DNA of 64,000 nucleotides from a virus. Position 1 is the first letter of the stretch, and each line of letters opens with the position of its first letter. The stretch lies in IMG/VR virus record IMGVR_UViG_3300045988_147522; one strand, given 5' to 3'. Shown here one piece after another: positions 1-50,279 of the stretch. The notes beneath the pieces are model-generated. The model saw nothing but the letters and a program-made list of their open reading frames with translations. It did no database searches and was not told the DNA's origin. The translations under genes were made by a program, and so were the position numbers.

Positions 1-316
1 GCATTTGCATTGTCGAAAGACTGCTTTACTTAAAGTAAAGTATTAGAAAGGTTAGGAGCAGAAGACTCATCCGGATGGAGGATGCTGATGGAGGCGAAGT
101 GAATGAAATGCACGGTGATGAAAACGAGGAGCGGCGAGTATCTCACAAACACAAGGGTTACAATTGAAAGGAGATGTCGAATCCACGATTGGCCGCTGAA
201 ATAGCCACATCGAAGCTATGATTACATCAACCAATCCCAATGACCAAGCTTCCAGAAGCGTCTTCTCACTGCTACAATTGTATTTAGAAATGCCAAAATC
301 TAAGGAGGAATAGAAA
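1..316 (+). repeat. Copy A of a ~315-nt composite leader element (conserved arms, variable purine-rich core)
   Basis: Positions 1-66 match 13129-13194 at 65 of 66 nt. Blocks 232-255 and 279-311 are identical to blocks in copy B. The core is divergent. The element ends in the SD of the 317 ORF. Confidence 0.9.
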
Positions 317-1600
317 ATGGATTTAATTACAAATTTATACACTCGGAGTTGTTTTGATAGCCGTCTTACATTTGGAGATGGTTGCCCCAAGATAATCGAA
401 ACATTTGTCAAATGTGTTTACGAACCTTATTACACTAAGAACAGTGATTTACCATCTATATTTTTTGGTTGTGTTTCCGGCACACAGCCACCACAGAGAG
501 CCGCAACAGACAAAGCTGTTTATATATGGTATAACAACACAGAACCCACTATAGAGGGAATTAATAAGAAATTTAACTGTAGTGTGGAATCGTATGAGAA
601 TTATGATAAATATTGCGAATTAACCCACAATAAATCAAAAGGATGGGTTGGCGGTAATCAGTATATTTTTTGGACAGATCCGTTTAATGCAAAATGTGTA
701 GAAGAAACGATAGCTGTTTTTCTTATTCCGCTGTTTGACTTTGTTTGCACAGCAAAAGAGATCAAAAACAAATTCAAACCAATTGTTGATGAAATAAGCC
801 AAGGTTCGTATGATAAATTGTTCGAGTTAGCCGACAAAATTTCAGAAGAAAAAGGATTATTGAAAGTTGTGTTAAATGCTCAAATTGCCGATTTTACGCA
901 GTATAAAAAGAAACGCACTCTTGATCGACTACACGATAGGATTAAGAATTATGAATCGGATTATCGATATTATGTAGCAAATGCGACAAAGGTTTACGAA
1001 AACTTGTTGGATTGTAAAAAACAATTATCATTATATAACGACAACGATAATGATAATGCTGCATTGATAGATATGCTTACAAACAACAGTGTGATTTCTG
1101 ATGTAAAAATTGATGGAGGCGTCCTTGAGTTTGTAGTATGTAACCCGATTACTCAGTATGATGAGGATGCTTTTGCCGAAATATTAAAATCAGAAAATTC
1201 CACTATTAATAATATGCCAAGCGTAGGTAAGGATGTTTTATGTTGGATGGTTGATGGCAGAATTGATTTACTAACCGAATGTAGAATCTGTATAAATCTT
1301 GATAATAATTCTGTTGATGCTTATGAGACAAATCTATACGGTTATATGCCTCATCCTCATTTGGCTTTATTTAATTGTTTTGGGGGTTTTAGAATAGATA
1401 TTGAAACTGCATTAGCAGAAGGCAATATCTGCTATGCAATACAGCTTATTCTTACTGCGTCACAAAATTTGAATTTTATGGATTCTACGGTGATGAGCGA
1501 ATTGGGAACTCGGCTTAATGGGGCAGACTACTCGTGTATTATGGATAAGGAGTCTGGAGAAGTTATGACAGTAGACGAATGGAACGAAAGGAGAAAATAA
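317..1600 (+). CDS. Hypothetical protein with C-terminal E2/UBC-like domain (putative catalytic Cys354)
   Basis: SD AAGGAGG lies 8 nt upstream. The segment YMPHPHLALFNCFGGF...ICYAIQLILTASQNLNFMDS resembles the UBC HPN-loop-Cys followed by the helix ...SIQSLL..PN. First gene of the operon with JAB and E1. Confidence 0.45.
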   Translation: MDLITNLYTRSCFDSRLTFGDGCPKIIETFVKCVYEPYYTKNSDLPSIFFGCVSGTQPPQRAATDKAVYIWYNNTEPTIEGINKKFNCSVESYENYDKYCELTHNKSKGWVGGNQYIFWTDPFNAKCVEETIAVFLIPLFDFVCTAKEIKNKFKPIVDEISQGSYDKLFELADKISEEKGLLKVVLNAQIADFTQYKKKRTLDRLHDRIKNYESDYRYYVANATKVYENLLDCKKQLSLYNDNDNDNAALIDMLTNNSVISDVKIDGGVLEFVVCNPITQYDEDAFAEILKSENSTINNMPSVGKDVLCWMVDGRIDLLTECRICINLDNNSVDAYETNLYGYMPHPHLALFNCFGGFRIDIETALAEGNICYAIQLILTASQNLNFMDSTVMSELGTRLNGADYSCIMDKESGEVMTVDEWNERRK

Positions 1601-1601
1601 A

Positions 1602-2417
1602 ATGCAACTTTTAAAGATACCGACAGATATAGAAACACCTACAATATCTTTCACCCCATTAGCTTTTGCCAAAATGATGATGCTTGTTGAGGTAAATGAC
1701 AAAGAGGTGGGGTGGCATGGTACAGTCGAAAGGCAGAACAACAATTTTGTTATTACTGATATCTTTGTATATCCTCAAGTAGTTACTCCAACAACCGTTG
1801 AGCCTTCTCAGGAAGAGTATAACGAATGGCAGACTGAGTTACCAGACGATATACATAACAGTCTTAGATTCCACGGGCATTCTCATGTAAATATGGGAAC
1901 ATCGGCGTCATCTGTTGATGCTAAATTTCAGGAAGACATCGTGAAAATGATTGATAATACTGATTTTTATATCTTTATGATTATAAATAAAAAAGGTGAT
2001 TTTAATATATATCTTTATGATGGTGTGCTTAATTTAGCATATAAATCTACAAATAAGGACACTCAGCCTGAGATAACATTAAACACAAATAATATTCAAT
2101 CGTTTGGAAAAATACTTTGTGTTTCGCCTGAAGTTTACGACACATTGATGTCTTTCAAGGAAGAATCAAAAGATATGGTTACAGAACCAAAACCAGTATC
2201 GTATTCGTATCATGAATATCCTTACAACTACGGTAATGCTGGTGTAAAAAGCCAGAGTTCTATTAAACTATCTATTGGAGAGATTCAAGATATATTTGGT
2301 GTTGCTTATTTGGACGCCAAAGATGTACATGATGAGTTGAGTAATCTTGTACATAAAGGAGCGATAACTAACGATAGGGATTCATTGATTGAACAGGCAA
2401 GTCTGTATATATATTAA
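1602..2417 (+). CDS. JAB/MPN (JAMM) metallopeptidase
   Basis: Exact JAMM motif H93-S-H95-x7-S103-x2-D106 (HSHVNMGTSASSVD). An upstream Glu sits in KEVGWHG. Start is 1 nt after the previous stop. Confidence 0.8.
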   Translation: MQLLKIPTDIETPTISFTPLAFAKMMMLVEVNDKEVGWHGTVERQNNNFVITDIFVYPQVVTPTTVEPSQEEYNEWQTELPDDIHNSLRFHGHSHVNMGTSASSVDAKFQEDIVKMIDNTDFYIFMIINKKGDFNIYLYDGVLNLAYKSTNKDTQPEITLNTNNIQSFGKILCVSPEVYDTLMSFKEESKDMVTEPKPVSYSYHEYPYNYGNAGVKSQSSIKLSIGEIQDIFGVAYLDAKDVHDELSNLVHKGAITNDRDSLIEQASLYIY

Positions 2418-2431
2418 GGAGGTCTTACGGA

Positions 2432-3100
2432 ATGGATTTAAGTAAATTAGGAGATATTAACCCATATCAGAAGGAGTTGTCAACCACTATACATATAGTT
2501 GGATGCGGAAGCGTAGGTAGTACGCAGGCAGAGCTTCTTGCAAGATATGGCTTTTGCAAGTTTAAATTATATGATTTTGATTTCGTTGAAAGTAAAAATC
2601 TTTGCAACCAGATGTTTTTTAATTCTGATTTAAACCACAACAAAGCAGAGTCGTTAAAAAACATCTTGCTTTCCGTTAATCCTGATATTGAAGTTCAGGT
2701 GTTTGGTAAAGGTTATATTGATCAGCGACTTAACGGAATCGTAATTCTTTGTGCTGACAATATTGATTTGTGCAGAAATATTTGCAAGCAGAATAGACTT
2801 AATCCATACATAAAAGTAATGTTGAATTACCGTACTGCAAGATATGATGCACAGCACTATGCAGTAGAGTGGAGAGATAAACCAAGTGTGGATAATTTGA
2901 TTAAAACAATGAATTTCACACACGAAGAAGCAAAAGCCGAAACTCCAGTGTCAGCATGTGGAGTAGAGATTGGTGAATCTATTGTTGTAAGAGATATTGT
3001 ACTTAAAGGTACAACAAATCTGTTTAAATGGATTACCGAAAGAAAATTAAGCTCTTTGATTATATCTTCTCCATATAAATTTGACACGGTAGTGATGTAA
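2432..3100 (+). CDS. ThiF/MoeB/E1-like adenylyltransferase (short, Rossmann domain only)
   Basis: IHIVGCGSVGS (GxGxxG) followed by LYDFDFVESKNLCNQ, the D-x-D-x-V-x-x-S-N-L-x-R/N-Q type E1 signature. SD AAGGAGG. Confidence 0.75.
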   Translation: MDLSKLGDINPYQKELSTTIHIVGCGSVGSTQAELLARYGFCKFKLYDFDFVESKNLCNQMFFNSDLNHNKAESLKNILLSVNPDIEVQVFGKGYIDQRLNGIVILCADNIDLCRNICKQNRLNPYIKVMLNYRTARYDAQHYAVEWRDKPSVDNLIKTMNFTHEEAKAETPVSACGVEIGESIVVRDIVLKGTTNLFKWITERKLSSLIISSPYKFDTVVM

Positions 3101-3113
3101 AGGAGGGACAAGT

Positions 3114-4259
3114 ATGTGCTACTATGTGTGTTTGCCAAAAACCGAATCGAAGCCTAACATTTGGAGTTGGCTTGAAGGAGATATACATTCTCCGCAGTGG
3201 TTATGGGGTACTAAATCTGCGGCAGCCACAGTGACTCGCAGAGTTGATTTTATACCTGCGAGTGCAAAAGACAAATACAATGTCAATTTTATTGTTGGCA
3301 CATTGGACGCCTTTAATAAAAAATGGAGTTATCTTGGACAAGAAATTGAAAAACATTATTCTCATTTCTATATTCCAAAAAAGAAATTAGATGAATGTGG
3401 CAGAGTTAAATGGAGAGAAATCTGTGCTCCGGATGATGAATTATCTGAAGCATTGAAGGACTTAAAAGAGATTTTCGAGACTGCGGGTGTTTCATTACAT
3501 CACACCAACGCATACGCTTATGTTCGACATAGAACAGCCTCGGATGCGGTTTCCAAGCATCAGTATAACCATAGTCGCTGGTGGATAACAACTGATTTTC
3601 AAAACTTTTTTGGTAATACCACCAAAGAGTTTCTTATGTCTATGATGGCACAAATATTTCCATTTAGTGCAGTTATTGAACGAGATTTTGGAAAAGAGTG
3701 TTTAAGCAGGGCATTAGATTTATGTTTTCTTAATGGGGGTTTGCCACAAGGAACTCCAATCAGTCCAATGCTTACTAATATTATGATGATACCGTTTGAC
3801 TACATAATGACAAAAAAGTGTCGTGAAAAAGACTATATATATACCCGATATAGCGATGATATACAAGTTTCACACCGTAGGAAGTTTAATCCAGACGAAG
3901 TTCTTAGATTTATCCACGAAACACTAACTCAAATTCACGCTCCGTTTACAATTGAGAAAGAAAAAACAAAGTTTAAAAGTGGAAATCAGTTCGTATTAGG
4001 TGTTATGTATAATCAAAATTGCGACATTACAGTCGGTCATAAGAACAAAAAAGAGTTCAAAGCTACATTATTTAATTATATGTGCGATAGGCTAAACGGT
4101 AAAGTTTGGGAGTTACCACAACTCCAACAAATGATGGGTAAATTTGCATATTATTCGATGATTGAAAAAGAGTATTTTGAAAATGTAATGAAGGAATATT
4201 CTCGTAAATTTAAACAGGATGTTATGAAATGTATCAAAGCAGACTTGCGTAGATGCTAA
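3114..4259 (+). CDS. Reverse transcriptase (stand-alone, retron/Abi/DRT-like; not DGR-type)
   Basis: RT motifs in order: YIPKKK..GRVKWREICAP, TDFQNFF, LPQGTPISPMLTN, YTRYSDD (Y246-S-D-D), VLGV. SD AAGGAGGG. Confidence 0.85.
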   Translation: MCYYVCLPKTESKPNIWSWLEGDIHSPQWLWGTKSAAATVTRRVDFIPASAKDKYNVNFIVGTLDAFNKKWSYLGQEIEKHYSHFYIPKKKLDECGRVKWREICAPDDELSEALKDLKEIFETAGVSLHHTNAYAYVRHRTASDAVSKHQYNHSRWWITTDFQNFFGNTTKEFLMSMMAQIFPFSAVIERDFGKECLSRALDLCFLNGGLPQGTPISPMLTNIMMIPFDYIMTKKCREKDYIYTRYSDDIQVSHRRKFNPDEVLRFIHETLTQIHAPFTIEKEKTKFKSGNQFVLGVMYNQNCDITVGHKNKKEFKATLFNYMCDRLNGKVWELPQLQQMMGKFAYYSMIEKEYFENVMKEYSRKFKQDVMKCIKADLRRC

Positions 4260-4340: not shown

Positions 4341-4415
4341 TGAGCAGTCGCCAAGCGGTTAAGGCACTGGACTTTGACTCCAGTATCGTGGGTTCAATTC
4401 TCACCTGCTCAGCCA
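4341..4415 (+). tRNA. tRNA-Gln (anticodon TTG), CCA encoded
   Basis: Hand-folded cloverleaf. Acceptor tgagcag/ctgctca with U1-A72, D arm gcc-aagcggttaa-ggc, anticodon stem ctgga/tccag with loop cTTTGac, T arm gtggg-ttcaatt-ctcac. Confidence 0.85.
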
Positions 4416-4417
4416 AA

Positions 4418-4572
4418 CGGTATTGTGTAGCTTTATAACCTTGCGGTTCAAAATAAAAATCTACTATCATGGTAGAAAGACTTTATACTGATCAGTTACT
4501 CAGTTTGGCGTTGAATGGAACGGTGGTGTCCCTTGACTGTTGTTCCGTCAGCCTTCAATCTACACAATACCG
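4418..4572 (+). ncRNA. Candidate structured RNA nested between tRNAs, closed by a 13-bp perfect helix
   Basis: cggtattgtgtag (4418-4430) is the exact reverse complement of ctacacaataccg (4560-4572). The interior has at least 4 local hairpins. No SD-led ORF. It starts 2 nt after tRNA-Gln and ends 5 nt before the next tRNA. Confidence 0.4.
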
Positions 4573-4577
4573 AATAT

Positions 4578-4653
4578 GACACAGTAGTCCAACGGCAGAG
4601 ACAGCAGACTTAAAATCTGTACAGTGAGAGTTCAAATCTCTTCTGTGTCACCA
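4578..4653 (+). tRNA. tRNA with anticodon TAA (Leu by anticodon) but class-I architecture (5-nt variable loop), CCA encoded
   Basis: Perfect 7-bp acceptor gacacag/ctgtgtc, A73, anticodon stem gcaga/tctgt with loop cTTAAaa, T arm gagag-ttcaaat-ctctt. 76 nt in total. Confidence 0.7.
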
Positions 4654-4656
4654 TAT

Positions 4657-4733
4657 GGACTGTTAGCTCAACTGGTTAGAGCGTCAAACTCATAATTTGA
4701 GGGTACAGGGTTCGACTCCCTGACAGTCCACCA
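4657..4733 (+). tRNA. tRNA with anticodon CAT (elongator Met or Ile2/lysidine type), CCA encoded
   Basis: Acceptor ggactgt/acagtcc, D arm gctc-aactggtta-gagc, anticodon stem tcaaa/tttga with loop cTCATaa, T arm caggg-ttcgact-ccctg. Confidence 0.85.
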
Positions 4734-5170: not shown

Positions 5171-5862
5171 TGTCCAAAGTAGTTAAAAGTTACAAAGGTT
5201 TTAATAAAGATATGACTTGCAGAGGCTTTCAGTATAAAGAAGGAAAAGAATATGAAACAAGTAAAGCTGTTGTTTGCAATGAAGGTTTTCATGCATGTGG
5301 ACACCCTTTAGATTGTTTAAATTATTATCCGCCAAGTACAAGTGTATATCATGAAGTTGAACAGACAGGCGAATTTTCATCCGATTCTGGTAGTAGAGAT
5401 TCAAAAATTGCATCAACTAAGATTAAAATTGGTGCAAAATTAAGCATAGTTGGACTCGTTTAGGCTGCAATAGATTTCACCAAATCCAAAATCGTCACAA
5501 TACAGGATATTACAGGCTATAAGGGTGCGTCCTCAGCTACAGGCTATAAGGGTGTGTCCTCAGCTACGGGAGATTACGGTGCGTCCTCAGTTACGGGAGA
5601 TTGTAGTGTATCCTCAGTTACAAGCTATAATGGTGTATCCTCAGCTGATAATTCTACATCTGTTGCAGTAGCGTGGGGTTATGAAAGCAAGGCAAAAGGT
5701 TGTATTGGTGCGCATATTGTTTGTGCTGAATGGAAATATGATAATCTTAATAACGATTGGGGTTTTGTTGGGGCAAAGATGTCAATAGTTGACGGCGTAA
5801 AGATTAAAGCAGATACATATTACACTTTACGAGACGGCGAATTTGTGGAGGTAAAAGAATGA
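5170..5862 (+). pseudogene. Repeat-containing protein (Cys/His-rich N-domain KGF..DMTCRGFQY..GFHAC, 9-aa TG(Y/D)xGxSS(A/V) repeats) interrupted by one in-frame TAG at 5461-5463
   Basis: ORFs 5170-5463 and 5554-5862 share a frame. There is no other stop between 5464 and 5553, and the repeat array starts in that interval. The second part has no SD. Confidence 0.65.
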
Positions 5863-6128
5863 AGAAAAGAATACTTGCTTGTGTTGTGATTATTGCAACA
5901 ATCTCAATGTTAATGATTGGTTGCACATCTGTAAACAGTACAAACGAAACATCAGACAGAATAGATAATATGTTCGTGCGTGTAGGATGGAATGGTTGTT
6001 TAGATGCAGGGATAGTGTATGATACTGAAACTAAAGTAATGTACGCAAAATCAGAAGCAGCATATAATAAAGGAACAATGACTTTACTCGTTGATGAAGA
6101 TGGTAAACCAAAACTTTGGAAAGAATAA
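5859..6128 (+). CDS. Lipoprotein (paralog of 47070-47315)
   Basis: Signal peptide plus lipobox MLMIGC. C-terminus VYDTETKVMYA...LLVDEDGKPKLWKE is shared with the 47070 ORF. Confidence 0.7.
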   Translation: MKKRILACVVIIATISMLMIGCTSVNSTNETSDRIDNMFVRVGWNGCLDAGIVYDTETKVMYAKSEAAYNKGTMTLLVDEDGKPKLWKE

Positions 6129-6142
6129 TACAGAGGATGTGA

Positions 6143-6433: not shown

Positions 6434-6516
6434 AAGTGAGGTTTTATTGGAATTTAACTGATAAGAACCAAGAATAAATTCAACATTTAAATAAGATAGT
6501 ATAGAGGTGTAAAAAA

Positions 6517-6945
6517 ATGATTGATTGCTCAAAAACAGAGAATTATTTCGCTGAAAAGCTGAGAATGACGAAAATGCGTAAACTATATGCTGGTATGTAT
6601 AAGTGCGAACTTGGTTGTCCTGACTGTCCTTTAAGTAGTTTTAATAATGATGCAACCGATAGGATGACATGCCAAGAGTTTGAAATGTATTACCCTGAAA
6701 AGGCAATCGAAATAGTTCAAAAGTGGAGTGATGAGCATCCGCAGAAAACATATCTTACGGAGCTTTTGAAAATCTTTCCAAACACTCCGCTTAAGGATGA
6801 CGGAACTCCTAAAGGTATATGTCTATATGAATTAGGGGCGACGAGTTTAGATAATTGCGAAGTGGACAATGCGTGTGCTAAATGTTGGAATCAGCCTTTG
6901 CCAGAAAGAGAAGAAGAGGAAGAAAATGACAGTAATGACACCTGA
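6517..6945 (+). CDS. Cys-rich hypothetical protein (paralog of 35599-35988)
   Basis: Shares MIDC(S/T)KTENYFAEK.RMTK, WSDEHPQKTYLT.LL and C..CWNQ with the 35599 ORF. SD agaggtg. Confidence 0.65.
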   Translation: MIDCSKTENYFAEKLRMTKMRKLYAGMYKCELGCPDCPLSSFNNDATDRMTCQEFEMYYPEKAIEIVQKWSDEHPQKTYLTELLKIFPNTPLKDDGTPKGICLYELGATSLDNCEVDNACAKCWNQPLPEREEEEENDSNDT

Positions 6946-13106: not shown

Positions 13107-13127
13107 GGGAGAGTACGCTCTCCCTTT
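13107..13127 (+). terminator. Hairpin terminator (gggagag-tacg-ctctccc, then ttt)
   Basis: 7-bp GC-rich stem followed by a short T run. Lies immediately upstream of leader copy B. Confidence 0.5.
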
Positions 13128-13128
13128 G

Positions 13129-13447
13129 GCATTTGCATTGTCGAAAGACTGCTTTACTTAAAGTAAAGTATTAGAAAGGTTAGAAGCAGAAGACACCCGG
13201 TAAGAATGATGCAGAATTCTCAAGTGATGCAGGCAGGTTCGACTGCGACCAAGAAAGCGAGAGATAACAATCAAGCCCAAGATTCGCTGCTGAAATGGAT
13301 TTACAAACCCACAATGTACAACTGAAAAAGCCACATACTGGTTACGATTACCTCAGCAATCCCAATGACCAAGCTTCCAGCATTCGTCATCTGGCTGCCA
13401 CCATCTGTATTTAGAAATGCCAAAATCTAAGGAGGAATTAAGTAAAT
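13129..13447 (+). repeat. Copy B of the ~315-nt composite leader element
   Basis: Same conserved 5' arm, the 24-nt block caatcccaatgaccaagcttccag and the 33-nt SD-proximal block as copy A. Confidence 0.9.
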
Positions 13448-13861
13448 ATGTTTACCTTAACTAAAATTGATAGTATACCAGACAATTATCAAAAATATCA
13501 TATACATAATAATTTACTAATATCTAATAGAATACGAAGTCATCTGGTTCAGAGATTTCCTGATTGTCATTGGGAAGTAACAAACAATGATATTTATATT
13601 AATGTGAGTCTTAAATCTTCACCTTGGGAGAAAAATAGTAAAATTGTTCATGCGATTGCTGATTATGCGTATTATTATGCAGATAGCTATAATTACGATC
13701 ACACTGATATAAATTCTGATTATTGTAATATGAATTTTTTCGGGGTGTACAAGAACAATATTATTGCGAAAGATTATACACAATTAGGAGCAACAAGCAA
13801 AACTCAACAGATGGAGCTTGAATTTATGCGTCAGTATAATGAAACATTTGCAAATGAATAA
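13448..13861 (+). CDS. Hypothetical protein (single gene behind leader copy B)
   Basis: Preceded by the leader SD. Flanked by terminators at 13107 and 13871. Confidence 0.6.
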   Translation: MFTLTKIDSIPDNYQKYHIHNNLLISNRIRSHLVQRFPDCHWEVTNNDIYINVSLKSSPWEKNSKIVHAIADYAYYYADSYNYDHTDINSDYCNMNFFGVYKNNIIAKDYTQLGATSKTQQMELEFMRQYNETFANE

Positions 13862-35578: not shown

Positions 35579-35598
35579 AGTTAATAGAGGTGAATTAA

Positions 35599-35988
35599 AT
35601 GATTGATTGTACGAAAACAGAGAATTACTTCGCCGAAAAGCGAAGGATGACGAAATTAACAAACACAGGTGTTTGTAAAATTAAATGCACAAACTGCCCT
35701 TTGAGCGACAAAAATAATGGTGAAGGAAGGTTTTGTGTAGATTATGAATCACACTATCCTGAAAGGGCTATTGCAATAGTACAACAGTGGAGTGACGAAC
35801 ATCCACAGAAAACTTATCTTACGGATTTATTAGAGAAATATTCAAATATTCCTCTTGATAATAACGGTATACCCGCCTATGTGTGTCCTCATGATTTAGG
35901 GTTGATGAGTGTAGAGGATTGCAAAAAAGATTCCGACAAATGTGTTGAGTGTTGGAATCAGCTTATTAAGGATGGTGAAGAGCGATGA
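35599..35988 (+). CDS. Cys-rich hypothetical protein (paralog of 6517-6945)
   Basis: See the 6517 ORF. Confidence 0.65.
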   Translation: MIDCTKTENYFAEKRRMTKLTNTGVCKIKCTNCPLSDKNNGEGRFCVDYESHYPERAIAIVQQWSDEHPQKTYLTDLLEKYSNIPLDNNGIPAYVCPHDLGLMSVEDCKKDSDKCVECWNQLIKDGEER

Positions 35989-46800: not shown

Positions 46801-47073
46801 ATGAAATACATCAAAAAAGCAATACCAATTGAAGCCTTCCAGTATAAAGGCGATTTTATTGAAAATGGGGAATATTGTATTCCTGAATGGGCGATTAAAG
46901 CGTATGAAGATGGCTTGCTTTATTATAAAGATGAAGGAGATTTATATATCCATACGCTTGAAGGTGAAATGAAATGCAGTTTTAACAGCTACATAGTTCA
47001 GGGTGTAAGAGGTGAGATTTTTCCTTGTAGACAGAACATTTTTGAGAAAAGATATATGAAGGTGGAAGAATGA
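46801..47073 (+). CDS. Hypothetical protein
   Basis: SD AAGGAGG. Confidence 0.5.
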   Translation: MKYIKKAIPIEAFQYKGDFIENGEYCIPEWAIKAYEDGLLYYKDEGDLYIHTLEGEMKCSFNSYIVQGVRGEIFPCRQNIFEKRYMKVEE

Positions 47074-47315
47074 AGAAAAGAATATCTGCTTGTGTTGTAA
47101 TTATTATTATGATTTCGGTATTATTTAGTGGTTGTGCATCTATCAAAGCATCAATTAAAACCAGCGATATGTTTGAATACATAGGGTATAGTCCAGAAGC
47201 CAACTCTGAAATTGTCTATGATACAGAAACTAAAGTTATGTACGCTGTTCTTAGTAACAGATGTATGACTTTGCTCGTTGATGAAAACGGTAAGCCAAAA
47301 CTTTGGAAAGAATAA
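47070..47315 (+). CDS. Lipoprotein (paralog of 5859-6128)
   Basis: Lipobox LFSGC. Shared C-terminus LLVDENGKPKLWKE. Confidence 0.7.
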   Translation: MKKRISACVVIIIMISVLFSGCASIKASIKTSDMFEYIGYSPEANSEIVYDTETKVMYAVLSNRCMTLLVDENGKPKLWKE

Positions 47316-47348
47316 AATTTAGGATTTAAAAGGAAAGAGGTGAAATAT

Positions 47349-50106: not shown

Positions 50107-50229
50107 AGTCACTGTTGAGTTGAGAACAGACAACATTTTCAAAGTCACAACTGTTGTCAAACTGTTGTCAAATTCAAATTTTGAATTCAAAAAATGTAGT
50201 GTTTAAGCCAAAAGTAGACACTTCGACTA

Positions 50230-50279
50230 ACTGCCTTCTAAGCAGTAGGTCAGGGGTTCGAGTCCCTTTTGGCGCGCCA
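50230..50279 (+). other. 3' half of tRNA-Arg(TCT): anticodon arm through CCA (attP core)
   Basis: actgc-cTTCTaa-gcagt, variable loop aggtc, T arm agggg-ttcgagt-ccctt, then ttggcgc-g-cca. No matching 5' acceptor strand or D arm upstream. Confidence 0.75.

What the first reader, a model, noticed from the sequence alone, without database searches (positions are those of the whole stretch)
1..316. Two copies of a ~315-nt composite leader with conserved arms, a variable purine-rich core and retained long-range pairings
Copy A (1-316) precedes the E2/JAB/E1/RT operon. Copy B (13129-13447) precedes a different gene.

Conservation:
- The first 66 nt are 65/66 identical and include the 17-bp palindrome ctttacttaaagtaaag.
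- A 24-nt block (232-255) and a 33-nt SD-proximal block (279-311) are identical.
- The ~165-nt core and a ~23-nt segment between the 3' blocks are strongly divergent and GC-richer than their surroundings.

Pairings readable in both copies:
- 5' gcattt (1-6) pairs with aaatgc (288-293), which lies in the loop of a ttaga/tctaa hairpin (284-288 with 299-303) abutting the SD.
- The conserved gcagaagac (58-66) pairs with the variable 3' segment. In A this is gtcttc plus tgc across a 4-nt bulge. In B it is gtcatctg with one mismatch. The 3' partner differs between copies yet stays complementary.

I could not find a canonical sigma-A promoter in the conserved arm. This looks like a cis-acting structured RNA: a translational or antitermination leader, or a template/guide RNA for the downstream RT.
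Basis: seen in the sequence. Interest (0 to 1): 0.68.

Follow-up and report, generated by a model that had tools for sequence, protein, structure and literature searches.

The report
Multi-copy retron-like RNA in a phage
The repeated ~315-nt "leader" is most likely the structured non-coding RNA that partners the phage's retron-type reverse transcriptase; it has three copies per genome and a hypervariable middle, which would make it an undescribed retron variant carried by gut Clostridia phages.

Summary
The two copies are real, but the element is larger and more numerous than reported. It starts upstream of window position 1. A third, diverged copy lies about 1 kb upstream of the window.

Each copy has these parts:
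- a 10-bp helix joining its two ends, about 300 nt apart
- an unpaired G immediately after the 5' strand
- two adjacent hairpins and a conserved GGTYAGGAG motif
- a variable domain
- a 3' strand that abuts the Shine-Dalgarno sequence

The same architecture, with entirely different helix sequences, occurs in at least 12 lineages of phages and Clostridia MAGs that carry a homologous retron-type RT. In most of them it is single-copy and sits directly upstream of the RT gene. All 108 helix cells pair, all 9 pairs show compensatory change, and the G is invariant.

The variable domain is 3-10 times more diverse than flanking or four-fold sites. It is non-coding, has no consistent fold, and is not adenine-biased.

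Best reading: a retron-like msr-msd RNA, triplicated in this lineage. The RT sits in an operon with a ThiF/E1 protein, a weak JAB match, and proteins I only infer to be E2-like and ubiquitin-like.

The second is no better than chance. No msDNA has been shown.

The parts
1..6 (+). Copy A: last 6 nt of the 5' strand (a2-like) of the closing helix. The full strand TTTGGCATTT starts 4 nt before the window.
   Evidence: L001:9681-9690 shows the complete strand. It pairs with 288-297. Covariation is shown.
7..7 (+). Copy A: unpaired G directly 3' of the closing-helix strand; candidate priming (branching) G.
   Evidence: Invariant in 12 of 12 lineages (column 10 of A6). Its function is inferred from retron biology (PMC7736814).
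12..21 (+). Copy A: hairpin P1, GTC-GAAA-GAC (GNRA loop).
   Evidence: Base-pair probability about 0.9 in all variants. One variant has loop GCAA. It is replaced by other hairpins in copy C and other lineages.
22..42 (+). Copy A: hairpin P2. The 17-bp 'palindrome' at 24-40 is its core.
   Evidence: 7 pairs, 5 of them with compensatory changes, none broken across alpha lineages. The G.U pair works only on the + strand.
44..64 (+). Copy A: conserved single-stranded motif TAGAAAGGTTAGGAGCAGAAG after P2.
   Evidence: GGTYAGGAG-like sequence recurs after P2 in distant lineages: L150, L151, L154, L146, L148.
67..278 (+). Copy A: hypervariable, non-coding domain, proposed msd-like template. Includes the semi-conserved block 232-255.
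   Evidence: Diversity pi is 0.18-0.37 against 0.005 in the arms and 0.06-0.08 in flanking genes. No conserved ORF. No consistent fold.
279..287 (+). Copy A: conserved TGTATTTAG. G287 directly precedes the 3' helix strand.
   Evidence: The G before the 3' strand is invariant in 12 of 12 lineages, mostly as AG.
288..297 (+). Copy A: 3' strand (a1-like) of the closing helix, AAATGCCAAA.
301..319 (+). Copy A: Shine-Dalgarno TAAGGAGG and the ATG (317) of the 427-aa gene, 3 nt after the helix strand.
   Evidence: The 3' helix strand lies 0-15 nt from the SD in all lineages.
13107..13124 (+). Copy B: GC-rich hairpin P0 (GGGAGAG-TACG-CTCTCCC) abutting the element. It is part of the repeat.
   Evidence: The stem is kept while the loop varies among about 30 phages. 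L150 and L151 carry analogous hairpins of different sequence. It is not called as a terminator.
13125..13134 (+). Copy B: 5' strand of the closing helix, TTTGGCATTT.
13135..13135 (+). Copy B: invariant G after the helix strand.
13140..13170 (+). Copy B: hairpins P1 (13140-13149) and P2 (13150-13170).
13172..13192 (+). Copy B: conserved motif TAGAAAGGTTAGAAGCAGAAG.
13195..13405 (+). Copy B: hypervariable domain of a different sequence type from copy A.
   Evidence: The identical core sits at the A position in L007 and L013.
13406..13424 (+). Copy B: TGTATTTAG plus the 3' helix strand AAATGCCAAA (13415-13424).
13428..13450 (+). Copy B: Shine-Dalgarno and ATG (13448) of a 137-aa gene with a weak superinfection-exclusion-like match.
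3114..4259 (+). Retron-type reverse transcriptase, the proposed protein partner of the element.
   Evidence: PADLOC RT_II-A 5.9e-42. NCBIfam retron_St85_RT 1.5e-46, below its cutoff. The best PDB matches are retron RTs.
317..3100 (+). Three genes between copy A and the RT: a 427-aa protein (E2-like unverified), a 271-aa protein (weak JAB match), and a 222-aa ThiF/E1.

Best explanation
The element is the non-coding RNA partner of the phage's retron-type reverse transcriptase, built like a retron msr-msd RNA.

Proposed mechanism:
- It is transcribed on the + strand as part of a long polycistronic message.
- Its two ends pair (TTTGGCATTT/AAATGCCAAA, equivalent to retron a2/a1).
- This places the invariant G after the 5' strand next to the invariant G at the 3' end of the variable domain.
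- The two 5' hairpins and the GGTYAGGAG motif form the msr-like module the RT recognises.
- The hypervariable ~210-nt domain is the msd-like template, copied into single-stranded DNA primed from that G.

In most relatives there is one such RNA directly upstream of the RT gene. In this lineage it sits ahead of the 427-aa/JAB-like/E1/RT genes (copy A) and has been duplicated ahead of two other genes (copies B and C). One RT would therefore serve three RNAs. Because the 3' strand abuts each downstream ribosome-binding site, reverse transcription might also influence translation of those genes.

Shown: the anatomy, the covariation, the association with the RT and the hypervariability. Inferred: RT binding, priming from the G, cDNA synthesis and any translational effect.
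For: Closing helix:
- It is present in both window copies.
- Copy C keeps it with three compensatory pairs (TGTAACATTT/AAATGTTACA). Its single-sided variants give G.U only on the + strand.
- Across 12 lineages, 108 of 108 cells pair and 9 of 9 pairs change on both sides. The covariation score is 1.31 against 0.25+/-0.06 in shuffles, and 31-43% of cells pair when the partner is slid.
- A perfect helix of at least 9 bp arises in only 1-4% of shuffles.
- The G after the 5' strand and the G before the 3' strand are invariant.

5' module:
- Two adjacent hairpins follow the G in 9 of 11 lineages by minimum-free-energy folding.
- P2 has 5 of 7 pairs compensatory.

Association with the RT:
- The RT is retron-like.
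- In the L076 group, L077, L145, L146 and L152-L155 the element fills the 300-390-nt gap directly upstream of the RT.
- In the window, L150 and L151 it sits between the ~77-aa gene and the 427-aa gene, an ncRNA-effector-RT order.

Variable domain:
- In short forms it is replaced by a 16-bp hairpin with a compensatory change, like a canonical msd stem-loop.
- It is hypervariable while the arms are nearly invariant, in two lineages.
- It is non-coding.
Against: - No msDNA, RNA ends or RT binding were observed.
- The long variable domain has no consistent stable stem-loop, which retrons normally have. Fold z-scores are -0.04 and -0.77, and RNAalifold and base-pair probabilities find nothing conserved in the core.
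- The RT scores below NCBIfam's retron cutoff, and its region X and Y motifs deviate: DAVxKH instead of NAXXH, and (V/N)LG instead of VTG.
- Copies B and C are 13 kb and 1 kb from the RT operon and head unrelated genes, which also fits an RT-independent leader.
- L075, L148 and L151 have only weak or ambiguous closing helices.
- I picked the helices by searching for them, so the count is partly by construction.
Confidence: 0.62

Rival explanations
1. It is an RT-independent cis-regulatory leader RNA placed at the head of several phage operons. It would control translation, RNA stability or processing, or processive antitermination of the downstream genes. Its neighbourhood with the RT would be incidental.
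For: - Three copies precede three different genes.
- The 3' helix strand always abuts the Shine-Dalgarno sequence.
- A GC-rich hairpin with a short U run sits just 5' of copies A and B.
- No promoter is nearby, so the element lies inside a polycistronic RNA.
Against: - In at least 8 other lineages the element is single-copy and sits exactly between the E1 gene (or an extra gene) and the RT gene.
- The invariant G at the helix junction and the hypervariable middle have no role in a simple leader.
- No Rfam leader family matches.
Confidence: 0.14
2. It is an RT-partner RNA that works by a non-retron mechanism. It could be a scaffold or template for a different product, such as concatemeric or homopolymeric cDNA as in the DRT2 and DRT9 defence RTs. 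Alternatively it could be a hyRNA-like switch in which reverse transcription mainly derepresses translation.
For: - The long variable domain lacks the msd stem-loop.
- The RT is a divergent retron-like enzyme below family cutoffs and also has a weaker Drt2 match.
- YAG occurs at both ends of the variable domain.
- The type VI retron hyRNA is a precedent for translation control by cDNA (bioRxiv 10.1101/2025.10.22.683967).
Against: - No stop-free frame exists on either strand, and the unit between the two YAG motifs is 232 nt, not a multiple of 3, so there is no neo-like ORF.
- The best protein matches are retron RTs, not DRT enzymes.
- The end helix plus G is the retron priming geometry.
Confidence: 0.14
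3. It is a DNA-level element: a repeated operator or promoter region (like the SPBRE operator of SPbeta bound by MrpR), or a recombination cassette whose conserved arms mediate exchange of the middle.
For: - The palindrome and near-invariant arms fit a protein-binding site.
- Cores swap between the A and B positions and look mosaic.
- Many assemblies break at the arms.
- SPBRE is a precedent (PMC10516654).
Against: - Compensatory changes join two strands 300 nt apart, and G.U-only variants occur on one strand.
- The hairpin stems covary while their loops vary.
- There is no promoter consensus.
- The single-copy group-2 element is just as hypervariable.
Confidence: 0.05
4. It is the template or variable repeat of a diversity-generating retroelement. 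The RT would mutagenise the core and copy it between the repeats.
For: - An RT sits next to repeats that have conserved ends and a variable middle.
- The core's substitution spectrum differs from that of the flanks.
Against: - Variability is not adenine-specific. The non-consensus fraction is A 0.12-0.15, C 0.14-0.19, G 0.15-0.20 and T 0.15-0.17.
- Copies within one genome are only about 50% alike in the core.
- The variable region is non-coding.
- The RT groups with retrons.
- Group 2 has a single copy.
Confidence: 0.03

Closest known systems
Retron msr-msd non-coding RNA, especially the type II-A layout (ncRNA, effector, RT; e.g. Retron-Sen2/St85)
   Same: - Terminal inverted repeats pair the two ends.
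- An unpaired G follows the 5' strand.
- One to three 5' hairpins are present.
- An internal domain varies freely between relatives.
- The RT is retron-like, with RT_II-A/St85 as best match.
- The RNA lies at the head of the operon or directly before the RT.
   Different: - The element is about 300 nt long.
- The long variable domain has no stable stem-loop.
- That domain is hypervariable among near-identical phages.
- There are three RNA genes for one RT in this lineage.
- It is phage-borne.
- The neighbours are ThiF/E1, a JAB-like protein and putative E2 and Ubl proteins, which appear in none of the 13 retron types of PMC7736814.
- The RT motifs deviate from the retron consensus.
Type VI retron hybrid RNA (hyRNA, Retron-Vpa2; bioRxiv 10.1101/2025.10.22.683967)
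   Same: A retron RNA is physically joined to the ribosome-binding site of a downstream ORF. This gives a precedent for cDNA synthesis controlling translation.
   Different: In the hyRNA the ORF lies inside the closing helix. Here the ORF starts after the 3' strand, and no small conserved ORF lies within the element.
DGR template-repeat RNA
   Same: It is an RT-associated non-coding RNA with a variable segment, carried by phages.
   Different: - There is no adenine-specific pattern.
- There is no coding variable repeat.
- The RT is not of the DGR type.
DRT2 non-coding RNA (rolling-circle template for the neo gene)
   Same: A structured RNA of about 300 nt lies next to a defence-type RT, with a template segment bounded by short repeats.
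   Different: No stop-free frame exists, the unit length is not a multiple of 3, and the RT is closer to retrons.
SPBRE, the MrpR operator of phage SPbeta (PMC10516654)
   Same: It is a short conserved sequence repeated at the heads of several operons of a large temperate Firmicutes phage.
   Different: SPBRE is a 15-bp DNA-binding site at promoters. Here the conserved parts form RNA helices that covary, and no promoter is present.

Membership tests
Retron (RT plus msr-msd ncRNA) | RT belongs to the retron clade | tested here: met
   PADLOC best hits are retron RTs (RT_II-A 5.9e-42). NCBIfam best hit is retron_St85_RT at 1.5e-46, but 159 bits is below the 235-bit cutoff. The top five PDB matches are retron RTs.
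Retron (RT plus msr-msd ncRNA) | Region X NAXXH motif and region Y VTG triplet in the RT (PMC7736814) | tested here: inconclusive
   The H and the G, the most conserved residues, are invariant in four divergent homologues (H149, G296). The motifs read (D/S)A(V/A)xxH and (V/N)LG.
Retron (RT plus msr-msd ncRNA) | ncRNA gene contiguous with the RT or its operon | tested here: met
   It lies directly upstream of the RT in the L076 group, L077, L145, L146 and L152-L155. It heads the operon in the window, L150 and L151.
Retron (RT plus msr-msd ncRNA) | Inverted repeats a1/a2 that pair the two ends of the RNA | tested here: met
   Helices of 9-14 bp occur in 12 lineages with 108 of 108 cells paired and 9 of 9 pairs compensatory. 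The helices were chosen by search.
Retron (RT plus msr-msd ncRNA) | Conserved branching G at the 3' end of a2 | tested here: met
   A G follows the 5' strand in 12 of 12 lineages. Whether it primes synthesis cannot be tested here.
Retron (RT plus msr-msd ncRNA) | msr region with one to three hairpins | tested here: met
   Two adjacent hairpins follow the G. P2 covaries.
Retron (RT plus msr-msd ncRNA) | msd region forming a long stable stem-loop | tested here: not met
   The long forms, including both window copies, have no consistent fold and z-scores of -0.04 and -0.77. Only the short form has a 16-bp hairpin.
Retron (RT plus msr-msd ncRNA) | Production of msDNA branched to the RNA | not testable with these tools
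   Needs nucleic-acid extraction or cDNA sequencing.
Diversity-generating retroelement | Template and variable repeats that differ at adenines, with the variable repeat inside a gene | tested here: not met
Type VI retron hyRNA | Effector ORF enclosed within the RNA closed by the inverted repeats | tested here: not met
   No conserved ORF lies inside the element. The downstream ORFs start after the 3' strand.
Any Rfam family | Match at the gathering score | tested here: not met
   Only tRNAs reach the gathering score in the window. Window 1-400 in E-value mode gives nothing below E = 7.
Operator or promoter repeat (SPBRE-like) | Protein-binding DNA motif at promoters | tested here: inconclusive
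   No promoter consensus is present and RNA-type covariation argues against it. Protein binding cannot be tested here.

The most novel reading that the evidence does not exclude
This is a new class of retron carried by temperate phages of gut Clostridia. A retron-type RT would work with a ubiquitin-like conjugation module (Ubl, E2-like, JAB-like, E1). Its ~300-nt RNA would carry a hypervariable, unstructured template under diversifying selection. In one lineage the RNA gene has been triplicated, so that one RT makes several different cDNAs. Each RNA is fused to the ribosome-binding site of a different phage gene, whose translation it may gate.
Probability: 0.3. Interest if true: 0.85.

Novelty: new variant of a known kind. 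Interest (0 to 1): 0.72.

Why it matters
- Retrons are known as bacterial anti-phage systems with one RNA per RT and a hairpin template. Here a large family of retron-like RTs (about 2,800 members at E<=1e-10) sits in phages and prophages of human-gut Clostridia.
- The RT lies next to an E1-type enzyme and putative conjugation proteins. I found no such association in the retron classification or in the literature searches.
- Its RNA has a template-like domain that evolves several times faster than silent sites.
- If the RNA is reverse transcribed, this extends retron biology to phage-encoded systems. It would link reverse transcription with ubiquitin-like conjugation.
- The tolerated variability and the interchangeable short and long forms would offer a natural scaffold for long, sequence-flexible cDNA production.
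- The hypervariability also gives a concrete, testable question about what selects on retron DNA sequence.

Tried and rejected
- Known phage match: the INPHARED phage collection has no match to the element, and only a 2% match to the first 20 kb.
- Rfam: no family matches.
- Small ORF or leader peptide in the core: rejected. The frames are broken by 1-nt indels, and no conserved open frame exists on either strand.
- Neo-like endless ORF (DRT2 type): rejected.
- DGR-type adenine mutagenesis: rejected.
- Conserved fold of the core: RNAalifold, averaged base-pair probabilities and a mutual-information scan gave no consistent helices.
- Sigma-70 promoter or intrinsic terminator in the arms: none called.
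- SD/anti-SD switch with the P0 hairpin: possible in this lineage but not conserved in L150, so dropped.
- Extra copies in the window: none found by motif search.
- Identity of the 427-aa 'E2': no Pfam, PDB or profile hit, and the AlphaFold model was too poor (pLDDT 48) to search with.
- First diversity profiles were spoiled by mixing A and B sites and by misalignment. I redid them with anchored segments.
- Whether phages lacking the RT keep the element: could not be decided, because contigs with only copy B mostly start just upstream of it.

Full report
**Observation**

The window holds two direct copies of the element, A at 1-316 and B at 13129-13447.
- The first 66 nt are 65/66 identical. 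The 24-nt and 33-nt blocks are identical, and the middle is only about half identical.
- Searches with up to 3 mismatches find no further copy in the window.
- The core is GC-richer than the window (about 47% against 35%). It is only mildly purine-rich.
- No sigma-70-type promoter or canonical terminator is called in or next to the arms.

**True extent**

A contig carrying the identical first gene (L001) supplies 10 kb upstream of window position 1.
- The repeat starts earlier than the window. Both copies share ATTTGAAACAAGGGAGAG-NNNN-CTCTCCCTTTGGCATTTGC, that is, a GC-rich hairpin (P0) followed by TTTG before the window's first base.
- Many public contigs begin or end at these arms. The window probably starts there because assemblies break at the repeat.

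**A third copy and a short form**

Exact-pattern scans of IMG/VR returned about 45 related loci.
- About 1.09 kb upstream of copy A there is a third, diverged copy C (L001:8637-8895). It lies ahead of a 128-aa gene and a 77-aa gene that I read by eye as ubiquitin-like.
- Copy C keeps the closing helix with three compensatory pairs (TGTAACATTT/AAATGTTACA).
- It keeps hairpin P2 with one compensatory pair (CCTTACT...AGTAAGG).
- Variants of copy C with single-sided changes give G.U pairs on the + strand only.
- In seven relatives the B position carries a ~135-nt short form. The whole variable domain is replaced by a 16-bp AT-rich hairpin, which itself shows a compensatory change.

**Structure**

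- Across 27 distinct long variants, RNAalifold and averaged base-pair probabilities agree on three features only: the closing helix and the two small 5' hairpins, P1 and P2.
- The core has no consistent fold. Whole-element folding energies are not better than shuffles, with z-scores of -0.04 and -0.77.
The best helix averages 5.7 bp against 5.3 bp in shuffles, and 5' changes are not compensated.
- The ttaga/tctaa hairpin is not conserved.

**Link to the reverse transcriptase**

The gene at 3114-4259 is a retron-type RT.
- PADLOC gives RT_II-A at 5.9e-42.
- NCBIfam gives retron_St85_RT at 1.5e-46, below its cutoff.
- The best PDB matches are retron RTs.

The preceding gene is a ThiF/E1. The 271-aa protein has only a weak JAB match. 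The 427-aa 'E2' could not be verified. It has a conserved P-x-P-H-x5-C-x-G motif.

RT relatives at 36-53% identity occur in other large phage contigs and in Clostridia and Lachnospiraceae MAGs. They share the same gene set in two layouts.
- Layout alpha (this window, L150, L151): a gap of about 340-360 nt lies between the ~77-aa gene and the 427-aa-type gene, and the RT follows the E1 directly.
- Layout beta (L076 group, L075, L077, L145, L146, L152-L155): a 300-390-nt non-coding gap lies directly upstream of the RT.

**Same architecture, different sequence**

- In 12 lineages these gaps have a perfect 9-14-bp helix joining their ends, and each lineage has a different helix sequence.
- The 5' strand is always followed by G. 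The 3' strand is always preceded by G, mostly as AG. It ends 0-15 nt from the Shine-Dalgarno sequence.
- Counted on the nine inner pairs, all 108 cells pair and all 9 pairs change on both sides. The covariation score is 1.31 against 0.25+/-0.06 in shuffles. Sliding the partner gives 31-43% paired.
- I selected these helices by search, so that count is partly by construction. Independently, a perfect helix of at least 9 bp appears in only 1-4% of shuffled gaps.
- L075, L148 and L151 are weaker or ambiguous.
- After the G come 4-6 unpaired bases and two adjacent hairpins in 9 of 11 minimum-free-energy folds.
- P2 has 5 of 7 pairs compensatory among alpha lineages.
- A GGTYAGGAG-like motif then follows, shared across both layouts.
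- This matches the retron ncRNA design described in PMC7736814: hybridising end repeats, a branching G and msr hairpins.

**Hypervariable middle**

| Region | Group 1, A site (19 distinct loci) | L076 group (32 loci, single copy per contig) |
|---|---|---|
| Arms | 0.005 | 0-0.03 |
| Core | 0.18-0.37 | 0.21-0.51 |
| Flanking genes | 0.06-0.08 | 0.04 |
| Four-fold sites of the RT gene | not reliable | 0.10 |

All values are nucleotide diversity (pi).
- The core carries many indels, yet group-1 length stays at 313 nt in 21 of 27 variants.
- Its transition/transversion ratio is 1.1, against 7.2 in the adjacent RT gene.
- Variability is not adenine-specific.
- No ORF or stop-free frame is conserved on either strand.
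- Cores fall into at least two sequence types, look mosaic, and swap between the A and B positions. The window's B core is identical to the A-position core of L007 and L013.

**Interpretation**

The best-supported reading is a retron-like msr-msd RNA for this RT.
- It is single-copy and adjacent to the RT in most lineages.
- In this lineage it has moved to the operon head and been triplicated.

The steps from anatomy to mechanism are inferred, not shown. These are RT binding, priming from the G and cDNA synthesis from the variable domain.

Three things keep confidence moderate: the missing msd stem-loop in the long forms, the divergent RT motifs, and the remote B and C copies.

Because each 3' strand abuts a ribosome-binding site, coupling to translation is conceivable, by analogy with the type VI retron hyRNA. 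It was not tested.

**Novelty**

- None of the 13 retron types in PMC7736814 involves ThiF, JAB or ubiquitin-like partners.
- A 2026 metagenome survey of retrons does not mention them.
- Full-text searches found no description of this combination.
- SPBRE of SPbeta is a 15-bp repressor operator. It serves only as an analogue for the rejected DNA-level reading.

Noticed in passing
window 4341-4733: Three tRNA genes (Gln-TTG, Leu-TAA, Met-CAT) lie immediately downstream of the RT gene. A fourth weak tRNA call is at 50207-50274.
   Followed up: partly
window 5511-5672: Five tandem copies of a 27-nt unit (TACAGGCTATAAGGGTGCGTCCTCAGC-like). Identity to the 54-nt reference falls from 100% to 63% along the array. 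They overlap the start of the ORF at 5554-5862.
   Followed up: no
window 5841-6138 and 47052-47325: Two diverged paralogous segments (75-81% identical) include an RBS and the start of a small ORF beginning MKKRI, possibly a lipoprotein-like signal. They lie 41 kb apart. A further paralogous pair is at 6515-6914 and 35597-35981.
   Followed up: no
L001:9414-9647 (just upstream of window position 1) and L076:1399-1626: A ~75-77-aa ORF precedes the operon in both lineages. It looks like a ubiquitin-like beta-grasp protein by eye and has no Pfam, NCBIfam or PHROG hit. If real, the operon is Ubl/E2-like/JAB-like/E1 plus RT.
   Followed up: partly
L076-L109, RT gene flanks: Substitutions among group-2 RT genes are 71% C<->T on the + strand, with a transition/transversion ratio of 7.2. 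This is a strongly skewed spectrum.
   Followed up: no
L150:540-615: Copy C of this relative carries a tandem duplication of about 45 nt covering its 3' arm (GGATTATCCAAACCAACC...CAACAATTTAGAACGCTA appears twice). L045 has an 8-nt duplication (CGCTGCCA) in its 3' variable segment.
   Followed up: no
IMG/VR loci L005, L011, L012, L025, L030, L034 and the window itself: Many contigs start or end within or just beside the repeated arms. The multi-copy element appears to break metagenome assemblies.
   Followed up: partly
window 13448-13861: The gene headed by copy B has weak matches to superinfection-exclusion protein families (Pfam GP17 2e-4, PHROG 1510 3.7e-4) and to LPD29.
   Followed up: partly
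L001:1-2037: A YonV_C-domain protein and a phage integrase lie about 8 kb upstream of the element. Close homologues of the 427-aa protein also occur on ~500-kb contigs. Both fit an SPbeta-like temperate phage integrated in Clostridia genomes.
   Followed up: no
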